Assembly: GCA_015056175.1 (NCBI GenBank)
Contig: SVGT01000013.1
Location: 6,984 to 38,983, forward strand
DNA from: Clostridiales bacterium
Lineage (GTDB): Bacteria; Bacillota; Clostridia; Christensenellales; Aristaeellaceae
Direction of reading: 5' to 3'
Length of the DNA: 32,000 nucleotides
Positions 2,671 through 22,777 of the stretch are shown piece after piece; position 1 is the stretch's first letter, and each line of letters starts with the position of its first letter. Both the position numbers and the translations under genes were made by a program. The notes beneath the pieces were generated by a model. The model did no database searches, was not told where the DNA came from, and worked only from the letters and a program-made list of their open reading frames with translations.

Positions 2671-3798
2671 TTACAGCTGGGGGAAGAGGATGTGGCGGTG
2701 ATCGGGCAGGAAGTGGGAGAGATACTCCCCTGCTACCACCGCGCCGCCGATGCCGTCCGGATGATCGCCGAAGCGGGCAAGCCCTTCCGTGCCGGGGACG
2801 GCGAGGAGCTCCATATCAAAGATCGCGTCGGCGCCCAGATGATCCTCCCGGATGCAGGCGTTGACCTGCTTGCGCACCCGCTCCTCATCGCCCTGCATGG
2901 AAAAGGGCGGCACGGTGCACAGCACCACGCGGGTGCGGGGCGCGTGCTGTTTGATGAGGCGGACGACGGCGGTCAGATTGCGGATGAGCACGGCGGCATG
3001 ATCCTCCGTATCGCGCATCTGGAAAATATCGTTGACGCCCAGGCACACGTTGACGATATCGGCGCCGGACAGCTTTTGCAGCCATGCGCCGCCTGTTGCG
3101 GCGTCCTGCGCCCGGGCATAGCCAAGCCCCACGTTGAGGCCTGCGATATCGCAGGGCAGCCCCTTGATGATGCGGGCGGCCCACTGCTCCTGCATGTCGG
3201 TGCGGGTCTGGCAGCCCTGGGTGATGCTGTCGCCGATGAAGGCGAAGGTGCAGGGGGCGTCCCGATCCGCCTGCCAGAAGCAGGGCAGCGTGCAGCAATC
3301 ATAGGTATCGTCCGTCACGCGGCGGAGGGGCGCGCCGTGATGGACGTCGCCCTCGCTCACATCGCACAGGGCCATGCTGTCCGGCGTGCCGGGAAGCACG
3401 CAGTTATCTTCCAACGCCTCCAGGCACCAGGTAAACGTCACATAGCCGCCGGGGGCGACGGAAAGGGGCACGGGATCGGAGGCGATGAGGGCGCCTGGGG
3501 ATACGTCTGCGGATTGCGTGCCGCAGAAGGTGACAAAATGGCGCTCCGCAACGGTCTCATCGCCGTCGCAGGCGGCGGCCTCCGCCCAGCGGATGCGGAA
3601 ATGCCCGCCGGGCAGATTGGCGAAGCTGACGGAGCCGTCATCCCAGGTGGAATCCACCGCGTTTTGGTAGCCAAAACGCCAGGAAAACGTACCCGGCCAC
3701 GTGGGGCGCACCAGGGCGCGGAAGGTGCGCGCTTCGCCCTTTTGCAGCAGGGTGTGCAGATTGCAGGAGAAGGACAGGGGGATATTGGAAACGAACAT
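2671..3798 (-). CDS. SGNH/GDSL-family hydrolase with an N-terminal beta-rich domain
   Basis: Has FAFIGDSITQG (GDS block I), GVNDI (block III) and DHPDG (DxxH block V). RBS GGAGG lies 6 nt upstream of the ATG at 3798. Confidence 0.85.
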   Translation of the reverse strand: MFVSNIPLSFSCNLHTLLQKGEARTFRALVRPTWPGTFSWRFGYQNAVDSTWDDGSVSFANLPGGHFRIRWAEAAACDGDETVAERHFVTFCGTQSADVSPGALIASDPVPLSVAPGGYVTFTWCLEALEDNCVLPGTPDSMALCDVSEGDVHHGAPLRRVTDDTYDCCTLPCFWQADRDAPCTFAFIGDSITQGCQTRTDMQEQWAARIIKGLPCDIAGLNVGLGYARAQDAATGGAWLQKLSGADIVNVCLGVNDIFQMRDTEDHAAVLIRNLTAVVRLIKQHAPRTRVVLCTVPPFSMQGDEERVRKQVNACIREDHLGADAIFDMELLAVPGTEGLARFGDHPDGIGGAVVAGEYLSHFLPDHRHILFPQL

Positions 3799-3865
3799 AC
3801 ACGCCTCCGTATTTTTTCATATCGTTTTTTTCATTATACAACAAAAGCGGGCGGGTAGGAAGAGG

Positions 3866-5413
3866 TCAGCGCAATTCCTCCGGGGAGGCTTCACAGAGCC
3901 CCTGTGCGTTCAAAAGCAGGATGCGCCCCGGCCACATGTCCATCAGCTTTCGGTCGTGGGTGACGCAGAGCACCGCGCCCGGGAAGGACACGATCATCTC
4001 CCGGAACACGGGGGCGGACAGGGGCGACAGATTGCGGGTGGGCTCGTCCAGCACCAGCACGTTGGCCTGGGTGAGGATCATGTGCAGCAGAAGCAGCTTG
4101 GCCTTCTGCCCGCCGGAAAGATCCCGGATGGGATGGGTCATTTCGTCCCGCGTCAGCTTCATGGCGCCCAGGTACGTGCGTATCTTGGTCAACTGCTCCT
4201 TATCGCCCCGGGTGTGGAGGAACTGAATGGGAGTATGATCCTCCGGCAGCAGCTCCTCGTAGCGCTGGGGCATGTACACGGCGCGCAGATCCTGTCGGGC
4301 GGTGAGATGGGCGGCGATATGACGCAGCAGCGTGGTTTTGCCGCAGCCGTTGTCGCCCAGGATGATCACCTTTTCCGGGCCGGTCATGCGCAGGAAGATA
4401 TTGTCCGCCAGCAGCCGATCCTCCGTTTCCAGGCGGGGAACATGCATTTCCAGCACCGTTTTGCCCGCGGGGACGGTGTTATCGCCCTCAAATGCGGCGT
4501 CGATGGCGTATTCCACGTTGGGGCGCTGGGTTTGATCCTCCCTTTCCCGTTCAAACCGCTTTTCCAGGGATTTGACGGCCTTCATTTTCTTTTTCAGCAG
4601 CCGCCCGGTGTGGGGATCCTGACGGGAAACGGAGGCCTGCGCGTGCTCCACGGCCTGCTGGATGCGGTCGAACTTTTCCTGACGGATGCGCTCCTGACGG
4701 CGCTCGTTTTGCGCCTGCTGCTCCTGCTGGGCGATGGCGCGGGCACGGGTCGCCATATAGGTATCGTAGGAGGTGCGGGAAAGCGTCCAGCGGGGGGTGG
4801 TTTTATGGTAGGCCATTTCCAGATGCAAAACGCCTGTGGCCGTGCGGGAGAGCAGCGTTTCATCGTGGGAGATAAAGAGCACGGGCAGATGGCAGGTGCA
4901 CAGAAAATGCTCCAGGAAGCGAAGGGTGGGAAGATCCAGATCGTTGCCCGGCTCGTCCAGAAGCAGCATGGTGGGTTCCTGCGCAAGCACCAGCAGCAAT
5001 TGCAGCTTGACCTTTTCGCCGCCGGAGAGCGTTTGCAGCATCTGGGAGGAAAAGGGGAGCGAGGGATCCATGCGGAGCTGGGCGCACAGCCGGTTAAGAT
5101 CAGCTGGCGAGAGCGCCTGGAAGGCGTCGCAGCGCATGCAGTATTCGTACACGGGCAGGGCGCGGCATGCTTCCGGGATCTCCTGGGGCAGGTAGCCCAG
5201 CTTTTCGCCGGGGGTATCGATGCGGCCCGTCACGCGGGCGTAGCCGGAAATCAGATTGGCATCAAAAATGGCCTTGAGCAGGGTGGACTTGCCGTTGCCC
5301 TCCTCGCCGATGAGGGCCAGACGATCCTGCCCGGACAGGGTAAAGGAAAGATCGTCAATGAGGACGCGCAGGTCTTTTTCGTGGGTGAGGGTCAGATTGC
5401 GTACAGAAAGCAT
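3866..5413 (-). CDS. ABC-F family ATPase (two ABC domains, no TM domain); candidate ribosome-protection (ARE) type
   Basis: Walker A GEEGNGKST and GDNGCGKTT; signatures LSGGEKVKL and LSGGQKAKL. A Q/R/E-rich interdomain linker is present (AIAQQEQQAQNERRQERIRQEKF...). 515 aa. An attenuator lies upstream. Confidence 0.9.
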   Translation of the reverse strand: MLSVRNLTLTHEKDLRVLIDDLSFTLSGQDRLALIGEEGNGKSTLLKAIFDANLISGYARVTGRIDTPGEKLGYLPQEIPEACRALPVYEYCMRCDAFQALSPADLNRLCAQLRMDPSLPFSSQMLQTLSGGEKVKLQLLLVLAQEPTMLLLDEPGNDLDLPTLRFLEHFLCTCHLPVLFISHDETLLSRTATGVLHLEMAYHKTTPRWTLSRTSYDTYMATRARAIAQQEQQAQNERRQERIRQEKFDRIQQAVEHAQASVSRQDPHTGRLLKKKMKAVKSLEKRFEREREDQTQRPNVEYAIDAAFEGDNTVPAGKTVLEMHVPRLETEDRLLADNIFLRMTGPEKVIILGDNGCGKTTLLRHIAAHLTARQDLRAVYMPQRYEELLPEDHTPIQFLHTRGDKEQLTKIRTYLGAMKLTRDEMTHPIRDLSGGQKAKLLLLHMILTQANVLVLDEPTRNLSPLSAPVFREMIVSFPGAVLCVTHDRKLMDMWPGRILLLNAQGLCEASPEELR

Positions 5414-5596
5414 AAAAAACCTCCGTTCTCCCGCGGCGGGGCAAACGGAGGATCATAGCACAAAAGACGCGCGGCGCAGGCCGTGCAAAGGGGTGCGAAG
5501 CTCCGTTTATGCCACACAAAATAAACCGCCGTGCGGGGGGCAAATTGTGCAGTGCAAACGGATTACTTCTTCATCTTCCCACTTCCTGTACCTGTT
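5414..5596 (-). promoter_or_regulatory. leader/attenuator of the ABC-F gene: 3-codon uORF plus alternative hairpins; the terminator stem sequesters the SD
   Basis: On the minus strand, the uORF is ATG AAG AAG TAA (5574-5563) with AGGAAG upstream. Segment 1 is CCGTTT (5561-5556), segment 2 AAACGGAG (5508-5501), segment 3 CCTCCGTTT (5451-5443) and segment 4 AACGGAGG (5427-5420). Segments 3 and 4 form CCTCCGTT..CCCGCcGCGGG..AACGGAGG followed by T6 and then the ATG. The GGAGG of segment 4 is the RBS. Confidence 0.6.
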
Positions 5597-5602
5597 TTTT
5601 TC

Positions 5603-5632
5603 AGTATAGCACTGTTGGAACGGGGCTGTCAA
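5603..5632 (-). promoter_or_regulatory. sigma-70-type promoter for the ABC-F leader
   Basis: On the minus strand: TTGACA (5632-5627), 18-nt spacer ending in TGc, TATACT (5608-5603). The -35 box overlaps the stop codon of the upstream gene. Confidence 0.5.
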
Positions 5633-6468
5633 CCCTGCTCGTGCCTGACGACGTCGCGAAGGGCGGCGATATGCGCACAGGTGGTGCCGCAGCAGCCGCC
5701 CACGAAGGAGGCATAGGCAAGCGCCGGGGTCATATCGCGGCCGAACATCTCCGGGGTATAGGGGCTTACCGCCTTGCCGTCCACCATCTGGGGAAGGCCG
5801 GCGTTGGGCTTGAAGAGCAGGGGAAGATCGGTATGCTGGCGGAAGGCTTTGAGCACGGGCAGGCAAAGCTCCGGCCCCATGGAGCAGTTGAGCCCCAGGG
5901 CAGCGGGATGGAGGGGAGCAAGCGCCTCCACCATATCGCAAACGGAATTGCCCATCATGGTTTTGCCCACCTTTTCAAAGCTCATGGACAGGTACAGGGG
6001 AAGATCGTACCTTACGGCGCAGCGGGCGGCCACGGAGAGCATATTGAGGTCGATAAACGTTTCCAGAAAAATGCCGTCGGGCTGCTCTTTGACGCCGGCT
6101 TCCAGCATCTGGGCGTAAATCTCCTCGCACTCGTCCTCTTCAATATCGCCGTAGGGCTCCAGAAGACCGGTCAGCGGGCCTATGTCCAGCAGCACTTTGG
6201 CTTTGCCCTGGGCGGCATCTTTGGCGATGGCCATGCCCTCCCGCACGGCCTGTTCCACCGTGTAGGCGGTGCGTTTGACCTCCGGGCCGTTGGCGCCGAA
6301 GGTGTTGGAGAGGATCATGTCCGCGCCGGCTGCAATCATATCCCGATGCACCTGGTGCACCAGATCGGGGGCAAGCATATTATAGCGCCACACGGGCTGT
6401 TTATCCTCCGTCAGCGCCCACAGGCTGGTGCCCATGGCGCCGTCAAGCAGGGTGATGTGCCGATCCAT
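5629..6468 (-). CDS. homocysteine S-methyltransferase family protein
   Basis: Start refined to 6468 (AAAGGAG, 8 nt, ATG). Reads MDRHITLLDGAMGTSLW, and the C-terminal GGCCGTTCAHIAAL provides the Zn-binding Cys pair typical of Pfam S-methyl_trans. Confidence 0.85.
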   Translation of the reverse strand: MDRHITLLDGAMGTSLWALTEDKQPVWRYNMLAPDLVHQVHRDMIAAGADMILSNTFGANGPEVKRTAYTVEQAVREGMAIAKDAAQGKAKVLLDIGPLTGLLEPYGDIEEDECEEIYAQMLEAGVKEQPDGIFLETFIDLNMLSVAARCAVRYDLPLYLSMSFEKVGKTMMGNSVCDMVEALAPLHPAALGLNCSMGPELCLPVLKAFRQHTDLPLLFKPNAGLPQMVDGKAVSPYTPEMFGRDMTPALAYASFVGGCCGTTCAHIAALRDVVRHEQG

Positions 6469-6484
6469 AAACAAAACTCCTTTG

Positions 6485-8005
6485 TCAGCGGGCGATGATA
6501 TCCACATTGCGCAGAAACACGCCGGGCAGCGAGATGGCCGATACGAAGGTATCCGGCTGGCTGCTGTCGATGAAGAAGCAGACCTGGCTGATATTTTCCA
6601 ATTCCGTCAGGGTATTGACCATGGCGTACACCATGAGCCGCTCCTCCTGCACGGACATGTGGGCGGCGATATCCCGGAAGCGCTGGGTGAGGTTGACAAG
6701 GGCGGTGCCGCCGCTGCAGGCGGTGCCCAGAATATCGCCTGCGCCGGCGCCTGCGGGCATGACGGGGGACAGATGATCGTTTCCGGCGTCGTAATAATCC
6801 GGGCCCTTGATGAGCTGGGTGATGAGGTAATGGGCGTTGGGCGCTTCGTACCAGGGCACGGCGCGGTAGACAGGAGCCAGGGTGTTATCGTCGGAAGCGA
6901 AGTACAGTTTGGCGCGGGACAGAAGGAAAACGCCAAACTGGCTGCGGCGCATCACGCCGTTTGCAAACAGCATGGTTTCGCCGGCGCCCTGATAGGTGCC
7001 CTCGGGGGTGAGGGAGGTGATCTTTTCATCGCCGATGAACATTTCCACGCCTGCGATATTGGGCAGGTACGTGGTCATGGTATAGACCAGAGAGGCCGCC
7101 ATGCAGGAGCGGGTGACGCCCTCGTCCAGCAGCGCCGCGTTCAGATCCTGAGAAAAGCGGAGGGTGAGCACCTTTTCGCCGGAGGTCTCGTTGACGGCGG
7201 GCTCGGTGGCAAGGTACACATGCAGCGGCGGGAAGGCGGGCAGGTCGGTAAGCACCTTGGGGCCTTCGGACAGGGCGTCCAGCAGCGTTCGGGCCATGTG
7301 GGGCAGCGCCGCATTGGAAAAGGCCAGCGTGCGGTTTTCACACAGCACGCCCCGGCCCCCTGCGGCGGGGAAATACAGCGTTACATCCTGCACCAGACGG
7401 CGACTTCCGTCGGCTGCGCTGCGCTGGGAAAGGGCGCGGTCCCACAGGGTGCTCAGATCGTCGGTGGAATTGAGATGCAGCGCACCGGTGGGCGTTTCCG
7501 AGGCTACGTCCAGGCCGGGCTGCACGCCGGCGATAAGGAGATTCACGCTGTCGATGCCGTCGCACCGGCACAGCGTGTTGGCGATGGCCTGGAACACGGT
7601 GTACAATTGCTCGTGGCTCAGCGTCAGCGCCGTGGCGGACAGATTGACCGTGGCAACGCCGCAGGAGATTTCAACCGGGCTTTGCAATTTCAGCGCATCT
7701 GCGCGGGGCAGGGGCTTAGCTTCATCGCCCTCATAGGCAAAGAGCATCTCCAGCAGCGTATCCGCATGCCAGCGGAAGGGGCTCAGCTCCGCTCTCCGGT
7801 TTACGGCCACAAGACGGGTGCCGTCGATGGACGGCAGGTACAATTGCACCGTGGCGGCGCGGGCGTTTTCCATCTGGCCCATGGGCGCCTGGAAGGATAC
7901 CTGCATGGGCGGCAGCGTGGCGCTCTCCTGGGGCAGGGCGTCTTTGGGCGTTGCGCAGCCGGTGAGCATCAGCACAAGGCAAAGGATGGGGATAAGCTTT
8001 TTCAT
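6485..8005 (-). CDS. GerMN-domain lipoprotein (sporulation/germination GerM-like)
   Basis: The lipoprotein signal is MKKLIPILCLVLMLTGC. GerMN-like blocks are present (YRAVPWYEAPNAHYLITQLIKGPD...GGTALVNLTQRF). Confidence 0.75.
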   Translation of the reverse strand: MKKLIPILCLVLMLTGCATPKDALPQESATLPPMQVSFQAPMGQMENARAATVQLYLPSIDGTRLVAVNRRAELSPFRWHADTLLEMLFAYEGDEAKPLPRADALKLQSPVEISCGVATVNLSATALTLSHEQLYTVFQAIANTLCRCDGIDSVNLLIAGVQPGLDVASETPTGALHLNSTDDLSTLWDRALSQRSAADGSRRLVQDVTLYFPAAGGRGVLCENRTLAFSNAALPHMARTLLDALSEGPKVLTDLPAFPPLHVYLATEPAVNETSGEKVLTLRFSQDLNAALLDEGVTRSCMAASLVYTMTTYLPNIAGVEMFIGDEKITSLTPEGTYQGAGETMLFANGVMRRSQFGVFLLSRAKLYFASDDNTLAPVYRAVPWYEAPNAHYLITQLIKGPDYYDAGNDHLSPVMPAGAGAGDILGTACSGGTALVNLTQRFRDIAAHMSVQEERLMVYAMVNTLTELENISQVCFFIDSSQPDTFVSAISLPGVFLRNVDIIAR

Positions 8006-8023
8006 GGCAGACTTCCGTTTCTG

Positions 8024-8983
8024 TCAGTTGGCGGCCGCAAACAGGGCCGTAAGATGATCGTAGGGGATGCGCCACAGGCCGTTTTCCGAAACCAGATGCA
8101 GCGGGAAGGCGGGGAGCATCACGTCCTGCCCGTCCGCATGGAGCACAAGATCGCAGCTGAACACGGCGCGATGGCCGTCGTGGCTGACCACGCCGGGGCT
8201 GAGTGTAAAGGACAGGAGCGCGGGGGACAGATCAAACTGTTCGTAGGCCTGATTCTGCCCCGGGCGCATATCGCCCTGATCGCCCGTGGCGGCCAGATGC
8301 TGGTACAGTTCCTCATGGCTGCGGCGCATCCATGCGTCCAGCACCTGACAGGCGGTATTGTAGGGGGTGAGCAGCACGCTTTCGTCCCGGGTGATGGGGC
8401 CAAGGGGCGTGTCATCCTCCGTATCGCGGAAAAAGGAGGCGGGCAAACGCAGGGAGGTGACGGCGTCGGCGCTGCGGTCCACCAGCACCTGCACCCGGGT
8501 GCAAAGGCCGCACTCGGTGAGGGTATTGACCAGGGACGCCATGCACAGCTTTCGGCGCAGGATGAATTCGTCATTGCCCGTGCCGCCGCTTTCGCCGGGG
8601 TAGCGGGAAAGCAGCGCATCGTTAAAGGTGAGGAACAGCGTGCCCTCCTGCCGGGCGGCGGACAGCACCTGGGTATCCGGCGGGAAGAGGGAGGTGAGGG
8701 ACACGCTCGCCGCCTCGGGGCCATCAATCAGCGCCTCCACCACGGCTTTTTCCGGCGCATCGCTGCGGGCAAGGTCTATTTTCCGCTCCTCGGCAGCCAG
8801 ATAGGCGCTGTCCTGATAACGGAAATAGAGGCGCACGGTCAGATCATCATCCGCAGGCGTCTCCTGAAAGCTTTCGGCAAGGGAGGGCGCGGGGGAAGGA
8901 TCGTGAGGCAGGGAGGCTTGACTTTTACAGCCTGTGAGCAGCAGGCACAAAAGCAGGGGAAGGACAAGGTATATGCGTTTCAT
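8024..8983 (-). CDS. GerMN-domain lipoprotein
   Basis: Start refined to 8983; the ATG overlaps the upstream TGA by 1 nt. The signal is MKRIYLVLPLLLCLLLTGC. The GerMN block reads RLYFRYQDSAYLAAEERKIDL...AVVEALIDGP...GTLFLTFNDAL. Confidence 0.8.
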   Translation of the reverse strand: MKRIYLVLPLLLCLLLTGCKSQASLPHDPSPAPSLAESFQETPADDDLTVRLYFRYQDSAYLAAEERKIDLARSDAPEKAVVEALIDGPEAASVSLTSLFPPDTQVLSAARQEGTLFLTFNDALLSRYPGESGGTGNDEFILRRKLCMASLVNTLTECGLCTRVQVLVDRSADAVTSLRLPASFFRDTEDDTPLGPITRDESVLLTPYNTACQVLDAWMRRSHEELYQHLAATGDQGDMRPGQNQAYEQFDLSPALLSFTLSPGVVSHDGHRAVFSCDLVLHADGQDVMLPAFPLHLVSENGLWRIPYDHLTALFAAAN

Positions 8984-9753
8984 CAGATCTCCGGTTCCTC
9001 TCCGATGCAATAGGTGCGCAGCTTGTTGGCCGTGCGCTCCAAAGACCCTTTGCTGTCGCCCCAGGGCTTGTCCGCATTACGGTAGTCAAACTTGAGGGTA
9101 AAAAACTCCAGATCGCCCTCCAGCTTGGACAGGCTGCGCTCCATGAGCGCCTGGGTATCGCGGGCAAACTGCACAAGCAGATCGCCGGACAGGTGATCGG
9201 CCGCCAATTCCAACAGATCCGCAGCGTCCGGCACGCAGAGAAGGTCGCTTTGCGCATAGGCCGTGCGGAAGGCAGAATCCGTCTTGTACAGGTGCATCAG
9301 GGTGTAGCGGTAGCGCTCCATGTTTTCCTCGATGGAATCGCAAAGCAGGCAGGTGGAAACAGCTGCGCGGATGTGCTCTGCAGCGTCCCGGAGGGCGTTT
9401 TTGCCGTCCTTGTTGCCGGTCAGCTTCTTGCCAAGGGGCGCTTCGGCGCAGCCTTTGGCCGCCTTCTGGGCGTCGGCAAACAGGGGGGAGAGCTTTTTAT
9501 GGTTTTCCAGCAGATGGGTGTGCATCATCAGCGCATGACCCAGCCGGTTGCGCTGGTTGTACAAAAGCACCTGATGACGGGGGCAGAAGCCCTTCCGGTT
9601 TACCTGGATGCGGGTGTCCGGCTCCATCACCGAGCCGCCCAGGCACCGGTCCACGTCGGTGAGCTCAATCTTGTGCTTCAGGGCGCACAGCGGGCAGTGG
9701 CTTTGCTGCTTGAAGGCGTCCCAGACGGGGATGGTATCGATATGGTAACGCAT
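8983..9753 (-). CDS. Cys-rich hypothetical protein (I recall this as the DUF6062 family; needs an HMM check)
   Basis: The ORF-track start at 9759 is GTG. The ATG at 9753 has AGGAG 5 nt upstream. Reads MRYHIDTIPVWDAFKQQSHCPLCAL...GFCPRHQ...CLLCD. It is the first gene of a tightly packed minus-strand operon. Confidence 0.7.
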   Translation of the reverse strand: MRYHIDTIPVWDAFKQQSHCPLCALKHKIELTDVDRCLGGSVMEPDTRIQVNRKGFCPRHQVLLYNQRNRLGHALMMHTHLLENHKKLSPLFADAQKAAKGCAEAPLGKKLTGNKDGKNALRDAAEHIRAAVSTCLLCDSIEENMERYRYTLMHLYKTDSAFRTAYAQSDLLCVPDAADLLELAADHLSGDLLVQFARDTQALMERSLSKLEGDLEFFTLKFDYRNADKPWGDSKGSLERTANKLRTYCIGEEPEI

Positions 9754-12316: not shown

Positions 12317-13750
12317 ATGTCGGAACGGACAAAGGCGCAGGGCAGGTTTAACAAATGGCTCTGCGGACTGTTTGACAGTGAGATGTTTACCACCAAGGAA
12401 CTGCTGGGCATGTTTTTTCCCCTTTTGCTGGACCAGTTCTCCATCCACATTATCGGCGTTTTATCCTCCTCGCTGGTCTCCTCGGTAGGCCAGGAAGCCA
12501 TCGCTGCCGTCAGCATGGTGAACTCCATGGGCTTTCTGGTGACGGCCGTCATGTTCGCTCTGGGCGCGGGCGGCGGCGTGGTGATCGCCCAGGCCAAGGG
12601 CAGCGGCGATGAAAAACGGCTGCGCCATGCCGTGGGCAATACCACCATGCTGGCCACCGGCTGCATGCTGGTGCTCTCTACGCTGCTGTACACGTTTGCA
12701 GAGCCTGTGGTGGGGATCATCTACCCCAACGCCGAGCCCATCCTGAAGGAATACGCGGTGCACTACCTGAAGCTGAACATGCTCTCCCAGGTGCCCTACG
12801 CCGTGTTCCACGCCATTTTTACCTCCTTCCGCAGCGTGGGCGACAGCAAATCCTCCCTGGTGCTGACCATCTTCATCAACGTGAGCCATCTGCTTTTGTC
12901 CCTTTTGTTCATCAACGTGCTGGGCATGGGCGTGACGGGCTCCGGGCTTTCGCTGATCGTGGCCCGCTCCATCGGCTGCGTGGTGGCCCTGATCTGGATC
13001 TTCCGTCCCCGGGGCTACCTGCACATTTCCGTGCACGACTTTTTCAAGTGGGATTTGTCCACGGTGAAGCCCATTGTGAAGCTGGGCATTCCCTTCTGCA
13101 TTGAGCAGATTTTGTTCCAGGGCGGCATGCTGATGGTGCAGGGGTATCTCAGCTCCTGGGGCGATACGCCGCAGATGGGCACCATGGCCCTGGCGGCTCA
13201 CGCCGTGGCCTCCTCCCTGATGAACCTGTACCAGGCCAGCGCCAACTGCGTGACCACCATGACGGGCACGGTGTGCGGCCAGTGCATCGGCGCAGGCAAA
13301 ATTGAGCTGTGCAAGCGCTACAACCGCAGCATGATCAAGGGCGGCAGACTGGTGCTGCTCATCACCGTGCTGGTGCTCTTCCCGCTTTCTCCCCTGCTGC
13401 TCAAGCTCTACCACCCCAATCCCGACGCCATGGGCATCATCTACAGCATTCTGGCGGTGGCCGTGCTGCCCATGCCCATCGTGTGGTGCAACGCCTTTGT
13501 GACCCCCACCATGCTGCGCAGCGCAGGCGACGTAAAGTACACCACCTACGTATCGCTGCTGGTGATGGTGATCGGCCGCGTGGTGCTGGGCTACATCTTC
13601 ACCATTGTGTTCAACCTGGGCCCTGTGGGCGTGTGGCTGGGTATGCTGGTGGAATGGCTCATCCGCGTGGTGCTGATGGAAAAGCGCTTCAAGAGCGGAA
13701 AATGGACCGCCTTCATCGAGGAAAAATACAGGCAAAAGCCCGCAGGCTAA
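12317..13750 (+). CDS. MATE family efflux transporter (paralog 1)
   Basis: 477 aa with about 12 TM helices. MATE-like blocks are present (PLLLDQFSIHIIGVLSSSLVSSVGQEAIAAVSMVN, ...VGVWLGMLVEWLIRVV). RBS AAGGAAGG. Confidence 0.9.
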   Translation: MSERTKAQGRFNKWLCGLFDSEMFTTKELLGMFFPLLLDQFSIHIIGVLSSSLVSSVGQEAIAAVSMVNSMGFLVTAVMFALGAGGGVVIAQAKGSGDEKRLRHAVGNTTMLATGCMLVLSTLLYTFAEPVVGIIYPNAEPILKEYAVHYLKLNMLSQVPYAVFHAIFTSFRSVGDSKSSLVLTIFINVSHLLLSLLFINVLGMGVTGSGLSLIVARSIGCVVALIWIFRPRGYLHISVHDFFKWDLSTVKPIVKLGIPFCIEQILFQGGMLMVQGYLSSWGDTPQMGTMALAAHAVASSLMNLYQASANCVTTMTGTVCGQCIGAGKIELCKRYNRSMIKGGRLVLLITVLVLFPLSPLLLKLYHPNPDAMGIIYSILAVAVLPMPIVWCNAFVTPTMLRSAGDVKYTTYVSLLVMVIGRVVLGYIFTIVFNLGPVGVWLGMLVEWLIRVVLMEKRFKSGKWTAFIEEKYRQKPAG

Positions 13751-13757
13751 AAAATCA

Positions 13758-13792
13758 ACGCAGTCTCCCGCAAACGGAGGCTGCGTTTTTTT
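13758..13792 (+). terminator. rho-independent terminator
   Basis: ACGCAGtCTCC-gcaaac-GGAGgCTGCGT followed by T7. Confidence 0.8.
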
Positions 13793-13851
13793 GCACGTGT
13801 CGGAATACGGAAAAATATGCCGAAGAAAGCGGGAAAATGTGGAAATACCGA

Positions 13852-13879
13852 TTGCGTTCCTGCCATAATGCGGTATAAT
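13852..13879 (+). promoter_or_regulatory. promoter of MATE paralog 2
   Basis: TTGCGT (13852-13857), 16-nt spacer, TATAAT (13874-13879). The flanking bases align with the paralog-1 promoter (cgATTG..TATAATGGA). Confidence 0.55.
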
Positions 13880-13915
13880 GGAACTTGCACAATATGATGG
13901 AGGATGAGATTTTTT

Positions 13916-15349
13916 ATGTCCGAACTGACGCCTGCGCGCGGCCCCAGGGGTAAATTCAACGGCTGGCTTCACCGCCTGTTTGACAGCGAAATGTTTACGA
14001 CCGGGGACATCCTGCGCATGTTTTATCCGCTGATGCTGGATCAGTTTGCCATTCACCTGATCATGACGCTGAGTACGTCGCTGGTGTCCTCGGTGGGTCA
14101 GGAGGCGCTGGCTGCCGTCAGCATGGTGAACACCCTTTCCTATGTGGTGACGGCCGTGATGTTTGCCCTCAGTGCGGGCGGCGGCGTGATCATCGCCCAG
14201 GCCAAGGGCAGCGGCGATGAGGACAGGCTGCACAAGGCCATTGCCACCACGGCCATGATCTCCTCTGCCGTGATGCTGGTTTTGTCCATCACGCTGACGG
14301 CGTTGGCAGGGCCTATCATTGAGCTTTTGTATCCCCACGCAGAGCCGCTGCTCAAGGAATACGCCGTGCACTATATGCGCCTGAACATGCTCACCCTCTG
14401 GCCCTTCTCCATTTTCCACGTGATCTTTACCGCCTTCCGCAGCGTGGGCGACAGCAAATCCTCCCTGATTCTGACGCTGTACATCAATATCAGCCATCTG
14501 CTTTTGTCCCTTCTGTTCATCAACGTGCTGGGCATGGGCGTGACGGGCTCCGGGCTTTCGCTGATCGTGGCCCGCGTCATCGGCGCCATTGTGGCCATGG
14601 TGTGGCTCTTTGGCCCCATGGGCAAGCTGCACATGAAGCCCCGGGCGTTTCTGAAGCTGGATAAAAAGATGGCAAGGCCCATCCTGCGCCTGAGCATTCC
14701 CTTCTGCGCAGAGCAGATGCTCTTTGAAGGCGGCATGGTGGTGGTGCAGGGGTACCTGAGCACCTGGGGCGATACCCCCGAAATGAGCACCATGGCGCTG
14801 GCGGCCCATGCGGTGGCCTCCTCGCTGGTCAGCCTGTATCAGGCCACCGGCTACTGCATCACCCAGATGACCAGCACGGTGTGCGGCCAGTGCATCGGCG
14901 CGGAGAAGATCGACCTGTGCAAGCGGTACAACCAAAGCATCATCAAGGGCGGCAATCTGATCTACCTGATCACGGTGCTGGTTTTGTTCCCCCTGACGCC
15001 GCTGCTGATGAAGCTGTACAACCCCAACCCCGACGCGCTGGGCATGATCTACGTGATGCTGATGGTGGGCGTGTTCCCCATGCCGCTGATCTGGTGCAAA
15101 TCCTTTGTCACCTCCACCACCATGTGCGCCGCAGGCGACGTGAAATTTGCCACCTACGTATCCTTTGTGGTGATGCTCATCGGCCGCATGGCGCTGGGCT
15201 ATGTGCTGACCATCACGCTGAACCTGGGCCCGGTGGGCATCTTTATCGGCATGCTGGTGGAATGGCTGTTGCGCATCCCGGCGGTGGAATGGCGCTACAG
15301 ATCGGGCAAGTGGCTGAACTTCCTCAAGCAGGAAAAGGCGGCCGGTTAA
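13916..15349 (+). CDS. MATE family efflux transporter (paralog 2)
   Basis: Start refined to 13916 (MSELTPARG..FNGWL aligns with MSERTKAQGRFNKWL of paralog 1). It is collinear with paralog 1 over its whole length. Confidence 0.9.
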   Translation: MSELTPARGPRGKFNGWLHRLFDSEMFTTGDILRMFYPLMLDQFAIHLIMTLSTSLVSSVGQEALAAVSMVNTLSYVVTAVMFALSAGGGVIIAQAKGSGDEDRLHKAIATTAMISSAVMLVLSITLTALAGPIIELLYPHAEPLLKEYAVHYMRLNMLTLWPFSIFHVIFTAFRSVGDSKSSLILTLYINISHLLLSLLFINVLGMGVTGSGLSLIVARVIGAIVAMVWLFGPMGKLHMKPRAFLKLDKKMARPILRLSIPFCAEQMLFEGGMVVVQGYLSTWGDTPEMSTMALAAHAVASSLVSLYQATGYCITQMTSTVCGQCIGAEKIDLCKRYNQSIIKGGNLIYLITVLVLFPLTPLLMKLYNPNPDALGMIYVMLMVGVFPMPLIWCKSFVTSTTMCAAGDVKFATYVSFVVMLIGRMALGYVLTITLNLGPVGIFIGMLVEWLLRIPAVEWRYRSGKWLNFLKQEKAAG

Positions 15350-21694: not shown

Positions 21695-22777
21695 ATGGAA
21701 TATTTGGTTTCAGAATATCTCGCATCCGAGACCATAGACCCACTTTTCTTGGTGGGAGATGCTCTTGATGTATTAAAAAATATTCCAGATAACAGCATTG
21801 ATTGTTGTATAACAAGTCCTCCTTATTGGAACAAGAGACAATATGCAAATGGCGGAATAGGTCTGGAAAAGGATTACAATGACTATATTTCCGCACTTGT
21901 TGAAATATTTATGGAAGTACACCGAGTATTAAAACCAACTGGTTCTTTCTGGCTCAATATTGGCGATACTTACCACAAAAAATCATTGCTCAATATTCCT
22001 TGGAGAGTTGCAATTGAATTGACTGACCGAGGGTGGATTCTTCGTAATACTGTCATATGGAACAAAGTAAAAGGCGGTTTAGATAATACTGAAGACCGTT
22101 TAAGAAACATCTATGAACCTGTTTTTCATTTCGTAAAAAAAGCAAAGGGATATTATTACGATATTGACAGTGTAAGAAACACACCGCAAAGCACAAAGGT
22201 TGTAAAAGGTGCAGTGGTCTCTGCGACAGGGGTTACGGGTGTTAGCTACAAAAGAAAAATAGAGTTATCAACTGTGCTGACAGATGAGCAAAAGAAGAAT
22301 GCTTATGCAGCACTTGAGGATATGCTGGAAAAGGTCCGTCTTGGCGAAGTGTCAGATTTTAGAATGATAATCAAAGGAGCTCAGCGAACCACTCATTCTG
22401 ATTCTGAAAAGGTTTCCGGTCGTGCAAAGGAACTGCATGAAAAAGGATTCTATTTCTTAAAGTGCAATCCTAAAGGGAGCAAACCCTCCGATGTTTGGGA
22501 TATACTGCCAGAAGATACTCAAAAGCGAACCACTCATTTTGCACCTTATCCAGAAGATTTGTGCCGAACACCAATTATACTTACCTGTCCCAAAGATGGT
22601 GTTGTACTTGACCCATTTGCAGGAACAGGAACCTCTTGTTTGGTTGCATTAGAATACAACAGAAAATCAATCGGCATAGAAATCGCAGATGAATATGTGG
22701 TAGCTGCCAAAGAAAGATGCCAAAAGAAGGTGGAAGATTATGAGCAAAGTCAAAGAACTATTTGGGATTTATTGTAG
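21695..22777 (+). CDS. type II DNA methyltransferase, beta class (N4-cytosine or N6-adenine; SPPY favours m4C)
   Basis: Motif IV is DCCITSPPYWN near the N-terminus and motif I is VLDPFAGTGTSCLVA near the C-terminus (IV before I, so beta order; Pfam N6_N4_Mtase-like). RBS AGGAGG. The DNA is AT-rich. Confidence 0.9.
   Translation: MEYLVSEYLASETIDPLFLVGDALDVLKNIPDNSIDCCITSPPYWNKRQYANGGIGLEKDYNDYISALVEIFMEVHRVLKPTGSFWLNIGDTYHKKSLLNIPWRVAIELTDRGWILRNTVIWNKVKGGLDNTEDRLRNIYEPVFHFVKKAKGYYYDIDSVRNTPQSTKVVKGAVVSATGVTGVSYKRKIELSTVLTDEQKKNAYAALEDMLEKVRLGEVSDFRMIIKGAQRTTHSDSEKVSGRAKELHEKGFYFLKCNPKGSKPSDVWDILPEDTQKRTTHFAPYPEDLCRTPIILTCPKDGVVLDPFAGTGTSCLVALEYNRKSIGIEIADEYVVAAKERCQKKVEDYEQSQRTIWDLL

What the first reader, a model, noticed from the sequence alone, without database searches (positions are those of the whole stretch)
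5414..5632. Four-segment translational/transcriptional attenuator with a 3-codon uORF upstream of the ABC-F gene
The minus-strand leader of about 180 nt follows a TTGACA-18-TATACT promoter.
- A mini-ORF ATG-AAG-AAG-TAA (MKK) is preceded by AGGAAG.
- Immediately after its stop comes segment 1, TCCGTTT.
- Segment 2, AAACGGAG, can pair with segment 1 (7 bp) or with segment 3, CTCCGTTT (8 bp).
- Segment 3 otherwise pairs with segment 4, AACGGAGG. This forms a GC-rich terminator hairpin followed by U6 that runs straight into the ABC-F ATG and contains its SD.

A ribosome stalled on the uORF would mask segment 1 and favour the 2:3 pairing, which would free the SD and abolish the terminator. This is the induction logic of erm genes and of ARE-type ABC-F genes (msr, vga, lsa, vmlR classes). 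It suggests that this ABC-F is an antibiotic-inducible ribosome-protection factor rather than a housekeeping ABC-F.
Basis: partly seen in the sequence, partly recalled or inferred. Interest (0 to 1): 0.65.

Follow-up and report, generated by a model that had tools for sequence, protein, structure and literature searches.

The report
uORF attenuator before an ABC-F gene
The stretch is a genuine, evolutionarily conserved RNA switch of a well-known kind, in which a ribosome stalled on a three-codon mini-gene stops premature transcription termination. It controls a ribosome-binding ABC-F ATPase of the uncharacterised SAF1 subfamily, which is thereby marked as a candidate stall- or antibiotic-inducible factor.

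Summary

- **Fold.** The free leader folds into a 1:2 anti-antiterminator plus a 3:4 terminator. Masking a ribosome footprint on the uORF flips the minimum-energy fold to the 2:3 antiterminator.
- **Close orthologs (61-98% protein identity).** Almost all keep the whole design. They have a 3-codon uORF (MKK, MTK, MRK, MRN, MRS; once 2 codons), with the UCCG of segment 1 12 nt after the AUG in 11 of 12 leaders.
- **Wider family.** SD-preceded 3-codon uORFs occur in 58 of 152 leaders, against 6.6 in shuffles.
- **Covariation.** It supports the terminated-state helices, but not the 2:3 helix, whose sequence is invariant.
A small GC hairpin followed by a TTNTTT pause-like motif sits inside the 1:2 loop.
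- **The protein.** It is neither a curated ARE nor a housekeeping ABC-F. It belongs to Murina's uncharacterised SAF1 subfamily.

The mechanism matches vmlR and cplR. This is a new member of a known kind. Antibiotic inducibility and a resistance function are inferred, not shown.

The parts
5627..5632 (-). -35 hexamer TTGACA. It overlaps the TGA stop of the upstream homocysteine S-methyltransferase-like gene.
   Evidence: A TTGAC(A/G) box is present at the same place in all orthologous leaders.
5603..5611 (-). TG-extended -10 box (TGcTATACT). The transcription start is predicted near 5596 (inferred).
   Evidence: 11 of 12 consensus positions, with TG before the hexamer. Orthologs carry TATACT, TATATT, TACAAT or TATGAT.
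5582..5587 (-). Shine-Dalgarno sequence of the uORF (AGGAAG), 7 nt before its ATG.
   Evidence: Orthologs have GGAG or GGGG at the same distance.
5563..5574 (-). Three-codon uORF ATG AAG AAG TAA (MKK).
   Evidence: It is conserved as an ORF with a variable peptide: MKK, MTK, MRK, MRN, MRS, and MR in L173. Family-wide, 3-codon uORFs occur in 58 of 152 leaders against 6.6 expected.
5555..5562 (-). Segment 1 (UCCGUUUG), the 5' strand of the anti-antiterminator. It starts directly after the stop codon.
   Evidence: UCCG starts 12 nt after the AUG in 11 of 12 leaders.
5497..5569 (-). Whole anti-antiterminator hairpin (1:2 helix plus the GAAGU/GCUUC extension into the uORF), -28.6 kcal/mol.
   Evidence: Helix 1 is paired in 92% of cells across 9 leaders.
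5525..5541 (-). Small GC hairpin at the apex of the 1:2 loop.
   Evidence: one search lists it as terminator-like. Three of its 4 pairs show changes on both sides (helix 2).
5519..5524 (-). TTATTT, matching the TTNTTT NusG-dependent pause motif. A pause function is proposed, not shown.
   Evidence: the motif sits in this loop in 8 of 10 leaders against 0.58 expected. The motif and its role in vmlR are described in PMC9226507.
5501..5512 (-). Segment 2 (GCAUAAACGGAG). It pairs either with segment 1 or with segment 3.
   Evidence: duplex 1:2 is -10.8 kcal/mol and duplex 2:3 is -12.4 kcal/mol. The 2:3 pairing is kept in 82% of cells against 35-54% for slid controls, without covariation.
5469..5486 (-). 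Linker hairpin (CGGC/GCCG core) at the apex of the antiterminator, followed by a U-rich run.
   Evidence: antiterminator-state fold. Four of the 5 pairs in helix 3 show changes on both sides.
5443..5451 (-). Segment 3 (CCUCCGUUU). It is the 5' arm of the terminator and also the anti-SD.
5420..5428 (-). Segment 4 (GAACGGAGG), the 3' arm of the terminator. It contains the ABC-F SD, GGAGG, at 5424-5420.
   Evidence: Helix 4 is paired in 98% of cells, and 6 of its 10 pairs show changes on both sides.
5414..5419 (-). U6 tract of the intrinsic terminator. It also serves as the spacer between the SD and the ATG.
   Evidence: A U run precedes the start codon in all close orthologs.
3866..5413 (-). ABC-F ATPase of 515 aa, SAF1 subfamily. 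It has two NBDs, a helical linker at residues 216-293, and no arm or C-terminal domain.

Best explanation
This is a ribosome-dependent transcription and translation attenuator in the 5' leader of a SAF1-subfamily ABC-F gene.

**Layout.** A sigma-70-type promoter gives a leader of about 183 nt. It contains an SD and the uORF AUG-AAG-AAG-UAA. The stop codon abuts segment 1.

**Default state (no stalling).** The ribosome leaves the uORF quickly. Segment 1 pairs with segment 2 to form the anti-antiterminator. Segment 3 is then free to pair with segment 4. The resulting GC hairpin plus U6 terminates transcription just before the ABC-F ATG. In any read-through RNA the same hairpin buries the SD.

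**Induced state.** A ribosome arrested on the uORF, with the AUG in the P site or at codon 3 or the stop, covers the base of the 1:2 helix. Segment 2 then pairs with segment 3. The terminator cannot form, the SD is exposed, and the ABC-F is made.

**Proposed pause.** A small hairpin followed by TTATTT inside the 1:2 loop probably pauses RNA polymerase before segment 2 is made. This would give the ribosome time to load.

**Shown here:** the sequence elements, their conservation, the alternative folds, and the covariation of the terminated state.

**Inferred:**
- Stalling is the trigger.
- The natural triggers are inhibitors that trap ribosomes at or just after initiation (lincosamide, streptogramin A, pleuromutilin or nucleoside classes).
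- The pause function.
- The SAF1 protein relieves such stalling.
For: **Sequence and promoter.**

**Folding of the window leader.** The free MFE is 1:2 plus 3:4 (z = -3.2). Masking the leader through 5559 or through 5553 switches the MFE to the 2:3 antiterminator and removes the terminator. This holds both before and after segment 4 is transcribed.

**Folding of orthologous leaders.** All 10 give 1:2 plus 3:4 when free. The terminator is lost in 7 of 10 when masked, with the 2:3 antiterminator in its place in 6 of them.

**Conservation in close relatives.**
- The promoter, SD, 3-codon uORF, UCCG..UUUGAC / GUCAAA..CGGA pairing and SD-containing terminator are present in relatives of 61-98% protein identity.
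- These relatives sit in at least three different gene neighbourhoods.
- The spacing from the AUG to UCCG is 12 nt in 11 of 12 leaders. It is kept even where the uORF is cut to 2 codons, in L173.

**Covariance model.** It scores 64 bits (E = 8e-12) on the window. Weaker hits lie exactly upstream of the ABC-F gene in more distant loci.

**Covariation of the terminated-state structure.** 91% of cells are paired, against 39-51% for slid controls. 18 of 37 pairs show changes on both sides, and 0 of 500 shuffles reach this.

**Wider family.**
- A terminator-like hairpin lies within 90 nt of the start in 138 of 170 loci.
- 3-codon SD-preceded uORFs occur in 58 of 152 leaders against 6.6 in shuffles; 4-codon uORFs occur in 23 against 5.5.
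- The uORF peptides include MRK, MIN, MRI and MKL. MRK, MIN and MRI are among the published vmlR/cplR uORF peptides, and MKL fits the VmlR2 consensus MK[L/Q].

**Pause motif.** TTNTTT follows the apical hairpin in 8 of 10 leaders against 0.58 expected.

**RNA evidence from a streptococcal SAF1 locus (L068).** Stranded reads peak at about 60x in the leader and fall to 3-8x around the predicted terminator and start codon. In two further runs, short leader contigs are 4-12 times deeper than the gene body.
Against: - There are no expression data for this organism. The only runs holding the window are DNA metagenomes.
- The 2:3 antiterminator shows no covariation because its sequence is invariant. 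In 3 of 10 orthologs the terminator still forms at equilibrium in the masked fold.
- An automated test across 67 leaders put the best partner of the terminator's 5' arm in segment 2 in only 35 of 67.
- In the streptococcal RNA data, gene-body coverage recovers to leader level. The abundant short RNA ends before the predicted terminator. Attenuation is therefore not demonstrated there.
- The protein misses every curated ARE cut-off. SAF1 was not among Murina's predicted AREs.
- From my own knowledge, not tested here: streptococci that carry SAF1 are generally clindamycin-susceptible.
- One close relative (L083) lacks the uORF and segments 1 and 2.
Confidence: 0.75

Rival explanations
1. The switch is the same, but its purpose differs. 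The leader senses ribosome stalling, while SAF1 is a stress-induced translation factor that rescues ribosomes stalled early on problematic mRNAs or under physiological stress. It would not be an antibiotic-resistance determinant, and antibiotics would be only incidental inducers.
For: - SAF1 clusters with no characterised ARE subfamily and reaches no ARE model cut-off.
- It is not on Murina's list of predicted AREs.
- No relative above 29% identity is found on any plasmid, so there is no sign of mobile spread.
- The gene is chromosomal, and synteny is conserved within the close clade.
- In one streptococcal RNA-seq run the gene body is expressed at leader level. The growth conditions of that run are not known to me.
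Against: - The uORF length and peptides match those of PLSA-type ARE leaders.
- The architecture (no arm, no C-terminal domain, linker of about 97 aa) resembles ARE1, ARE2 and ARE3 rather than EttA, Uup or YdiF, whose linkers are 80-81 aa.
- The best profile match in the PDB is the resistance factor VmlR2, collinear over the full length.
- The best NCBIfam model is the generic ribosomal-protection ABC-F model.
Confidence: 0.2
2. The leader is not regulatory. The hairpin plus U6 would simply be the terminator of the upstream S-methyltransferase-like gene or an insulator, and the uORF and repeated segments would be chance features of a GC-rich spacer.
For: - The upstream gene ends only 20 nt before the -10 box and has no terminator of its own.
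- L083 keeps only the terminator.
Against: - A promoter lies between the upstream gene and the leader and is conserved.
- The leader travels with the ABC-F gene into other neighbourhoods, including one with a divergent upstream gene.
- The uORF start and stop are kept while its codons vary.
- 3-codon uORFs are enriched about 9-fold.
- There is covariation.
Confidence: 0.03
3. The leader is a ligand- or protein-binding riboswitch-like element (T-box, metabolite riboswitch or RNA-binding-protein target), and the uORF is irrelevant.
For: The leader is structured, conserved and ends in a terminator, as riboswitches do.
Against: - No Rfam family matches, even at E = 10.
- The conserved sequence is fully explained by SD/anti-SD mimicry repeated four times.
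- The loops and the apical regions vary freely.
- The uORF with its own SD is the most conserved feature across a family whose leader sequences otherwise differ.
Confidence: 0.02

Closest known systems
cplR leader of Clostridioides difficile (ARE1 ABC-F CplR; Obana et al. 2023, PMC10201436)
   Same: - Three-codon uORF. CplR has MR[I/M]. MRI occurs in this family, and MRK, MRN and MKK occur in the close clade.
- A 5' hairpin that includes the uORF.
- A 3' intrinsic terminator whose stem sequesters the SD of the ABC-F gene, followed by poly-U that ends at the start codon.
- An alternative antiterminator.
- Combined transcriptional and translational attenuation.
   Different: - The ABC-F subfamily differs: SAF1 here, ARE1 for CplR. 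The CplR model scores only 158 bits against a cut-off of 780.
- There is no sequence similarity between the leaders.
- This leader has an apical hairpin plus TTNTTT.
- No experimental data exist for this leader.
vmlR leader of Bacillus subtilis (ARE2 VmlR; Takada et al. 2022, PMC9226507)
   Same: - Three-codon uORF. VmlR has MIN, with natural variants MDN, MDK and MRK.
- An anti-antiterminator hairpin holding the uORF.
- A pause hairpin with a TTNTTT (TTATTT) NusG motif.
- An intrinsic terminator.
- Induction by drugs that arrest initiating ribosomes.
- At the protein level, ARE2 is the nearest characterised subfamily: VmlR2 is the best PDB match and ARE2 is the best non-SAF1 BLAST hit.
   Different: - In vmlR the SD is sequestered by a separate fourth stem-loop. 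Here the terminator itself holds the SD.
- In vmlR the NusG-dependent TTNTTT pause hairpin (SL-2) lies between the anti-antiterminator and the terminator. Here the best-conserved motif lies inside the anti-antiterminator loop.
- The protein is only about 30% identical to ARE2 and lacks the ARE1/2 C-terminal extension.
SAF1 subfamily of ABC-F proteins (Murina et al. 2019, PMC6723617)
   Same: - The window protein is 38-40% identical over 400 aa to the S. mutans and S. pneumoniae SAF1 references (246-264 bits; the next best subfamily scores 124 bits).
- It forms one clade with them.
- It shares motifs such as IIGEEGNGKSTLLK, DEPSNDLDL, GRLLxKKMK and DEPTRxxSP.
- It has the same minimal NBD-linker-NBD composition.
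   Different: - The subfamily was defined from 66 Firmicute species, including streptococci, Aerococcaceae and at least one Clostridium ([C.] hathewayi). This member is from a high-GC gut Clostridia lineage and forms its own well-supported sub-clade.
- No function or regulation has been published for SAF1 in the library I could search.
erm-type translational attenuators (ermC and others)
   Same: The logic is the same: a ribosome stalled on a leader ORF remodels mutually exclusive hairpins and frees the SD.
   Different: erm leaders encode longer peptides (for example 19 aa in ermC, from my own knowledge). They require drug- and peptide-specific elongation arrest by macrolides, and mostly act on translation only. 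Here the uORF is 3 codons and a full intrinsic terminator is present.

Membership tests
uORF-dependent ribosome-mediated attenuators of ABC-F genes (vmlR/cplR type) | Short (2-4 codon) uORF with its own SD in the leader | tested here: met
   (AGGAAG, 7 nt, ATG AAG AAG TAA). The feature is enriched family-wide.
uORF-dependent ribosome-mediated attenuators of ABC-F genes (vmlR/cplR type) | uORF conserved as an ORF in orthologs | tested here: met
   Nearly all relatives of 61-98% identity have it. L083 is the exception.
uORF-dependent ribosome-mediated attenuators of ABC-F genes (vmlR/cplR type) | Intrinsic terminator (GC hairpin plus U tract) between the uORF and the main ORF | tested here: met
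   (-20.3 kcal/mol, U6). Helix 4 covaries.
uORF-dependent ribosome-mediated attenuators of ABC-F genes (vmlR/cplR type) | Mutually exclusive anti-antiterminator, antiterminator and terminator pairings that switch when the uORF is occupied | tested here: met
   Masked against free folds. Caveat: the antiterminator has conserved complementarity but no covariation.
uORF-dependent ribosome-mediated attenuators of ABC-F genes (vmlR/cplR type) | SD of the main ORF sequestered in the repressed state | tested here: met
   GGAGG at 5424-5420 lies in the 3' arm of the terminator.
uORF-dependent ribosome-mediated attenuators of ABC-F genes (vmlR/cplR type) | Premature termination in vivo and antibiotic-dependent read-through | not testable with these tools
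   No RNA runs hold the window. RNA-seq of a streptococcal relative shows a leader-enriched short RNA but is inconclusive.
Curated ARE ABC-F resistance families (ARE1-8; NCBIfam/AMRFinder models) | ABC-F architecture: two NBDs joined by a helical linker, with no membrane domain | tested here: met
   (pLDDT 88; helices at 216-261 and 267-293).
Curated ARE ABC-F resistance families (ARE1-8; NCBIfam/AMRFinder models) | Score above the curated cut-off of an ARE model | tested here: not met
   NF000355 scores 276.9 against a cut-off of 380. Vga scores 199 against 725, Msr 187 against 680, Sal 181 against 725, CplR 158 against 780, and Lsa 132 against 750.
Curated ARE ABC-F resistance families (ARE1-8; NCBIfam/AMRFinder models) | Phylogenetic clustering with a characterised ARE subfamily | tested here: not met
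   The protein clusters with SAF1. ARE2 is the nearest subfamily but is separate. ARE4, ARE5, ARE7 and ARE8 were not included in the tree.
Curated ARE ABC-F resistance families (ARE1-8; NCBIfam/AMRFinder models) | Extended interdomain linker (ARD) | tested here: inconclusive
   The SAF1 linker is 97 aa (Murina Table S3). VmlR has 96, ARE3 106 and ARE1 110, against 80-81 in EttA, Uup and YdiF. Whether the tip reaches the PTC was not modelled.
Curated ARE ABC-F resistance families (ARE1-8; NCBIfam/AMRFinder models) | Confers resistance to ribosome-targeting drugs | not testable with these tools
   Needs MIC assays.
SAF1 subfamily (Murina et al. 2019) | Closest similarity to, and monophyly with, the SAF1 reference sequences | tested here: met
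   (264 and 246 bits, against 124 or less for all other subfamilies). (one clade; bootstrap 73.5% in an NJ tree on 379 columns of the first 400 aa).
SAF1 subfamily (Murina et al. 2019) | Domain composition of ABC1-linker-ABC2 without an arm or C-terminal extension | tested here: met
   The protein has 515 aa and NBD2 runs to the C-terminus.
Housekeeping bacterial ABC-F (EttA, Uup, YdiF, YfmM, YbiT, YheS) | Model cut-off reached or clustering with these clades; arm and/or C-terminal domain present | tested here: not met
   (EttA scores 213 against 599; Uup scores 179 against 900).. No PF12848 hit, no arm and no C-terminal domain.

The most novel reading that the evidence does not exclude
SAF1 would be a previously unrecognised stall-inducible ribosome-protection or ribosome-rescue ABC-F subfamily. 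It is spread through gut Clostridia (Oscillospiraceae, Lachnospiraceae), Erysipelotrichaceae and oral streptococci. Its members would be switched on by the same kind of three-codon-uORF attenuator, and it would confer inducible tolerance to PTC-targeting antibiotics. That would add a new ARE class to the commensal resistome.
Probability: 0.4. Interest if true: 0.6.

Novelty: new member of a known kind. Interest (0 to 1): 0.42.

Why it matters
Attenuators with 3-codon uORFs have so far flagged ABC-F genes that protect ribosomes from lincosamides, streptogramins A, pleuromutilins and nucleoside antibiotics.

This design is conserved across SAF1. That subfamily has no assigned function, was not previously predicted to be an ARE, and is annotated only as 'ABC-F family ATP-binding cassette domain-containing protein'. 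The finding gives a concrete, cheaply testable hypothesis about inducible intrinsic resistance or stall rescue in abundant gut and oral Firmicutes.

It also exposes a recurrent annotation error. Gene callers extend the ABC-F ORF into the leader.

If SAF1 turns out not to be a resistance factor, it would be an example of this switch driving a different translational stress response.

Tried and rejected
- **Rfam.** A scan of 5200-5900 at E up to 10 gave only two chance hits. No described RNA family matches.
- **MAFFT and RNAalifold.** The MAFFT alignment of 10 leaders mis-registered segment 2, and RNAalifold on it found only 4 pairs. I replaced it with a hand-structured 3-sequence seed and a covariance model.
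- **Transcript evidence for the window itself.** Only DNA metagenomes and one run of unknown type held as contigs contain it. This was uninformative.
- **Closer relatives.** Close orthologs came from exact-protein look-ups instead.
- **Plasmids.** The tblastn search found nothing above 29% identity, so I found no mobile relatives and no named relative.
- **Structure.** The AlphaFold model and Foldseek rank PoxtA, VmlR2 and Uup almost equally. This does not discriminate between subfamilies.
- **Automated antiterminator-partner test.** On 67 leaders it is noisy (35 of 67), and I do not use it as proof.
- **First tree.** The first bootstrap tree script timed out. I re-ran it with a faster distance method.
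- **Pneumococcal lead.** The Northern-validated sRNA F43 lies between SP1281 and SP1282 and may be a SAF1 leader transcript. I could not verify that SP_1282 is NP_345746.1.
- **Amino-acid-sensing attenuation.** Rejected: there are only two sense codons and their identity varies (K, T, R, N, S).
Full report
**1. Observation**

On the minus strand the window reads as follows:
- TTGACA (5632-5627), 18 nt, then TG-extended TATACT (5608-5603).
- About 20 nt further on, AGGAAG (5587-5582), 7 nt, then ATG AAG AAG TAA (5574-5563).
- TCCGTTTG (5562-5555, segment 1).
- AAACGGAG (5508-5501, segment 2).
- CCTCCGTTT (5451-5443, segment 3).
- GAACGGAGG (5428-5420, segment 4).
- TTTTTT (5419-5414), then the ATG (5413) of a 515-aa ORF (3866-5413).

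The promoter is the only sigma-70-like site in 3.5 kb and matches 11 of 12 positions. The core hexamer AACGGA/TCCGTT occurs 24 times in 32 kb, and four copies alternate in orientation within 141 nt of the leader. The leader folds at -74.8 kcal/mol (z = -3.2; 0 of 200 shuffles fold as well), into a 1:2 helix and a 3:4 terminator.

**2.

- The 1:2 helix extends into the uORF. G5569-U5565 (codon 3 and the U of the stop) pairs with G5501-C5497. The whole hairpin spans 5569-5497 at -28.6 kcal/mol.
- The 1:2 loop contains an inner helix and a small GC hairpin (5541-5525), followed by TTATTT (5524-5519).
- The terminator has 9 outer and 4 inner pairs (-20.3 kcal/mol). Its 3' arm is the ABC-F SD (GGAGG, 5424-5420), and the U6 tract doubles as the SD-ATG spacer.
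- The antiterminator pairs G5512-G5501 with C5450-C5441 (7 + 3 bp). The antiterminator region folds at -28.4 kcal/mol.

**3. Does the switch work on paper?**

I masked the footprint of a ribosome stalled at initiation (through 5559) or with the stop codon in the A site (through 5553). In both cases the MFE changes from 1:2 plus 3:4 to the 2:3 antiterminator with no terminator. This holds for the nascent RNA before segment 4 exists and for the full leader.

Ten orthologous leaders all fold into 1:2 plus 3:4 when free. When masked, 7 of 10 lose the terminator, and in 6 of these the 2:3 antiterminator replaces it. In the other 3 the terminator survives at equilibrium. RNAalifold on a clean 3-sequence alignment picks the 2:3 state as the consensus, so the two states are close in energy.

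**4. Conservation**

*Close relatives.* Exact-protein look-ups gave loci encoding relatives of 98, 80, 76, 74, 74, 68, 66, 64, 63, 61 and 61% identity. All but one carry the following:
- A TTGAC(A/G)...TAnnnT promoter and an SD.
- A three-codon uORF: MKK, MTK (three times), MRK (twice), MRN (twice) and MRS.
- A stop codon directly followed by UCCG(n)UUUGAC, a matching GUCAAA(n)CGGA, and a terminator whose 3' arm is the SD followed by a U run and the start codon.

In L173 the uORF is ATG CGC TAA TAA. The ORF is one codon shorter, but the 12-nt distance from the AUG to UCCG is kept. This fits sensing of a ribosome held at the start codon (inference).

The leader accompanies the gene in three different neighbourhoods:
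- S-methyltransferase / ABC-F / GDSL lipase.
- Acetyltransferase / ABC-F / two-component system.
- Divergent peptidase M1 / ABC-F / two-component system.

It is therefore part of the ABC-F transcription unit, not the terminator of a neighbouring gene. L083 (76% identity) keeps only the terminator. L177 has the uORF leader about 370 nt upstream.

*Covariance model.* I built a model from three leaders with a hand-given structure. It scores 64 bits (E = 8e-12) on the window. It also finds weaker hits (E from 1e-4 to 0.05) placed exactly upstream of the ABC-F gene in more distant loci.

*Covariation.* On the model-based alignment of 9 distinct leaders, the terminated-state structure is paired in 91% of cells, against 39-51% for slid controls. 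18 of 37 pairs show changes on both sides, and 0 of 500 shuffles reach this. The alignment was fitted to that structure, so this leans in its favour. The 2:3 helix is paired in 82% of cells against 35-54% for slid controls, but shows no covariation. Segments 1-4 are all constrained by SD/anti-SD mimicry. Qualitatively, L087 and L171 changed segment 3 to GCGCGCCGUCCC and carry a matching ...CGGAUGCGC after segment 2. L175 changed CCUCCG to CUUCCG together with CGGAAG in segment 2.

*Wider family.* I examined 170 loci of 35-54% identity from Lachnospiraceae, Oscillospiraceae, Erysipelotrichaceae and Streptococcus.
- 138 of 170 have a terminator-like hairpin within 90 nt of the start.
- SD-preceded ATG uORFs of exactly 3 codons occur in 58 of 152 non-identical leaders, against 6.6 in dinucleotide shuffles. 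Four-codon uORFs occur in 23 against 5.5. Other lengths are not enriched.
- The peptides include MKN, MNN, MRN, MRI, MLV, MIN, MKL and MYR.
- The same hairpin logic recurs with unrelated sequences.

**5. Pause-like element**

TTNTTT lies directly 3' of the small apical hairpin in 8 of 10 leaders, about 50 nt after the AUG. Composition-preserving shuffles of that loop give 0.58 expected. A second hairpin plus U-rich run sits between segments 2 and 3, and it carries TTNTTT in 5 of 10.

In vmlR, TTATTT is a NusG-dependent pause site. Pausing there limits leaky expression and is proposed to allow uORF translation (PMC9226507). A pause at 5524-5519 would hold the polymerase after segment 1 has emerged but before segment 2 exists. 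This function is inferred.

**6. The protein**

- *Family models.* Pfam finds two ABC_tran domains and no linker-extension domain. The best NCBIfam model is the generic 'ribosomal protection-like ABC-F' NF000355. It aligns end to end at 276.9 bits but falls below its cut-off of 380. EttA scores 213, Vga 199, Msr 187, Sal 181, Uup 179, CplR 158 and Lsa 132, all far below their cut-offs.
- *Solved structures.* The best PDB sequence match is the resistance factor VmlR2 (8BUU). It scores 166 bits with the single sequence, and 254 bits collinear over the full length with the family profile. The next matches are YheS (225), ABCF1 (214), VmlR (210) and Sal(B) (209).
- *Predicted structure.* An AlphaFold model (pLDDT 88) shows two NBDs and a helical hairpin linker (216-261 and 267-293), with no arm and no C-terminal domain. 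Foldseek ranks PoxtA, VmlR2 and Uup nearly equally.
- *Plasmids.* No plasmid carries a relative above 29% identity.
- *Subfamily.* The supplementary tables of Murina et al. 2019 give labelled reference sequences. The window protein is 40% identical (264 bits) to the S. mutans SAF1 reference and 38% identical (246 bits) to the S. pneumoniae one. The next best hits are ARE2 (124), YheS (105), VmlR (102) and EttA (100). In an NJ tree the window protein, all fetched homologs and both SAF1 references form one clade on a long stem (bootstrap 73.5%; the close clade has 100%). This clade is separate from EttA, Uup, YdiF, YfmM, YbiT, YheS and from ARE1, ARE2, ARE3 and ARE6.
- *Linker length.* The SAF1 linker is 97 aa. 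This is like VmlR (96), ARE3 (106) and ARE1 (110), and unlike EttA, Uup and YdiF (80-81).
- *What is known about SAF1.* It has no function note in Murina's Table 1 and is not on the list of predicted new AREs. No other paper in the searchable library mentions it.

**7. Transcript evidence from a relative**

For the S. sanguinis-type SAF1 locus L068 (43% identity; uORF MKN), stranded raw reads show sense coverage starting near 3724. It peaks at about 60x in the leader and falls to 3-8x around the predicted terminator and start codon. It then recovers to 25-50x in the gene body. In two other runs, short adapter-flanked leader contigs (3732-3849) are 4-12 times deeper than the gene-body contig.

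The leader is therefore transcribed with the gene and yields an abundant short RNA. However, its 3' end is not at the predicted terminator, and the body coverage recovers. This is compatible with attenuation but does not prove it.

**8. Comparison with known systems**

The design is that of the experimentally dissected cplR and vmlR leaders.
- cplR has the uORF MR[I/M], a terminator that sequesters the SD, and poly-U up to the start codon (PMC10201436).
- vmlR has the uORF MIN, MDN, MDK or MRK, an anti-antiterminator, a TTNTTT pause and a terminator (PMC9226507).

In the published cases, three-codon uORFs are thought to report drugs that block the ribosome right after initiation, with little dependence on sequence context. 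This leader works like those.

As to membership: it meets every sequence-level criterion of that attenuator class. The protein does not meet the criteria of any curated ARE family or any housekeeping clade. It does meet those of SAF1.

**9. Verdict**

The feature is real and conserved. It is a new member of a known kind of switch, attached to an uncharacterised ABC-F subfamily. The attenuator mechanism is well supported computationally (confidence about 0.75). Antibiotic inducibility and a protective function of SAF1 are plausible but untested. The main rival is a stall-induced non-resistance translation factor.

Noticed in passing
L084:475, L085:1501, L171:1501, L172:1501 (called gene starts); true starts at L084:589, L085:1549, L171:1594, L172:1606: Gene callers extended the ABC-F ORF 16-42 codons upstream into the leader (products of 553, 531, 548 and 557 aa). 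The annotated N-termini therefore cover the antiterminator and terminator region. This is a recurrent mis-annotation for the family.
   Followed up: yes
L083:600-710: A 76%-identical ortholog has only the terminator (CCTCCGTTT...AACGGAGG followed by a T6 run) about 100 nt after the upstream gene. It has no promoter, uORF, segment 1 or segment 2. It could be a natural 'locked-off' or read-through-dependent variant, or an assembly artefact.
   Followed up: partly
L173:1339-1350 (also L174): The uORF is shortened to two codons followed by two stops (ATG CGC TAA TAA). The AUG-to-UCCG spacing stays at 12 nt. This suggests the sensed ribosome sits on the start codon.
   Followed up: partly
L177:1075-1330: In this 61%-identical relative the uORF (MRS) leader and a terminator-like hairpin lie about 370 and 200 nt upstream of the ABC-F start. 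An extra spacer of about 190 nt and unknown role follows.
   Followed up: partly
L068:3724-3975: RNA-seq of a streptococcal SAF1 locus shows 5' ends at 3724/3725, only 6-7 nt before the uORF AUG, and an abundant adapter-flanked 118-nt leader fragment (3732-3849). The fragment ends about 90 nt before the predicted terminator hairpin. Whether this reflects processing or a pause site is unexplained.
   Followed up: partly
literature: S. pneumoniae TIGR4 intergenic SP1281-SP1282 (PMC3395615): [quoted passage not shown] It may be the terminated leader of the pneumococcal SAF1 gene. I could not verify that SP_1282 is NP_345746.1.
   Followed up: partly
window 5629-6507 (-), 6485-8005 (-), 8024-9010 (-), 2671-3798 (-), 12317-15349 (+), 21695-22777 (+): The neighbourhood is ordinary chromosomal. 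It holds a homocysteine S-methyltransferase-like gene whose stop overlaps the -35 box, two GerM/Germane lipoproteins, a GDSL lipase, two tandem MatE efflux genes and an N6/N4 DNA methylase. There is no erm or cfr methyltransferase and no mobile-element gene next to the ABC-F.
   Followed up: partly
window 3701-5458 (+), 5509-6498 (+), 6428-9013 (+): Long ORFs run antisense to the real genes (585, 329 and 861 aa). These look like GC-rich shadow ORFs, not genes.
   Followed up: no
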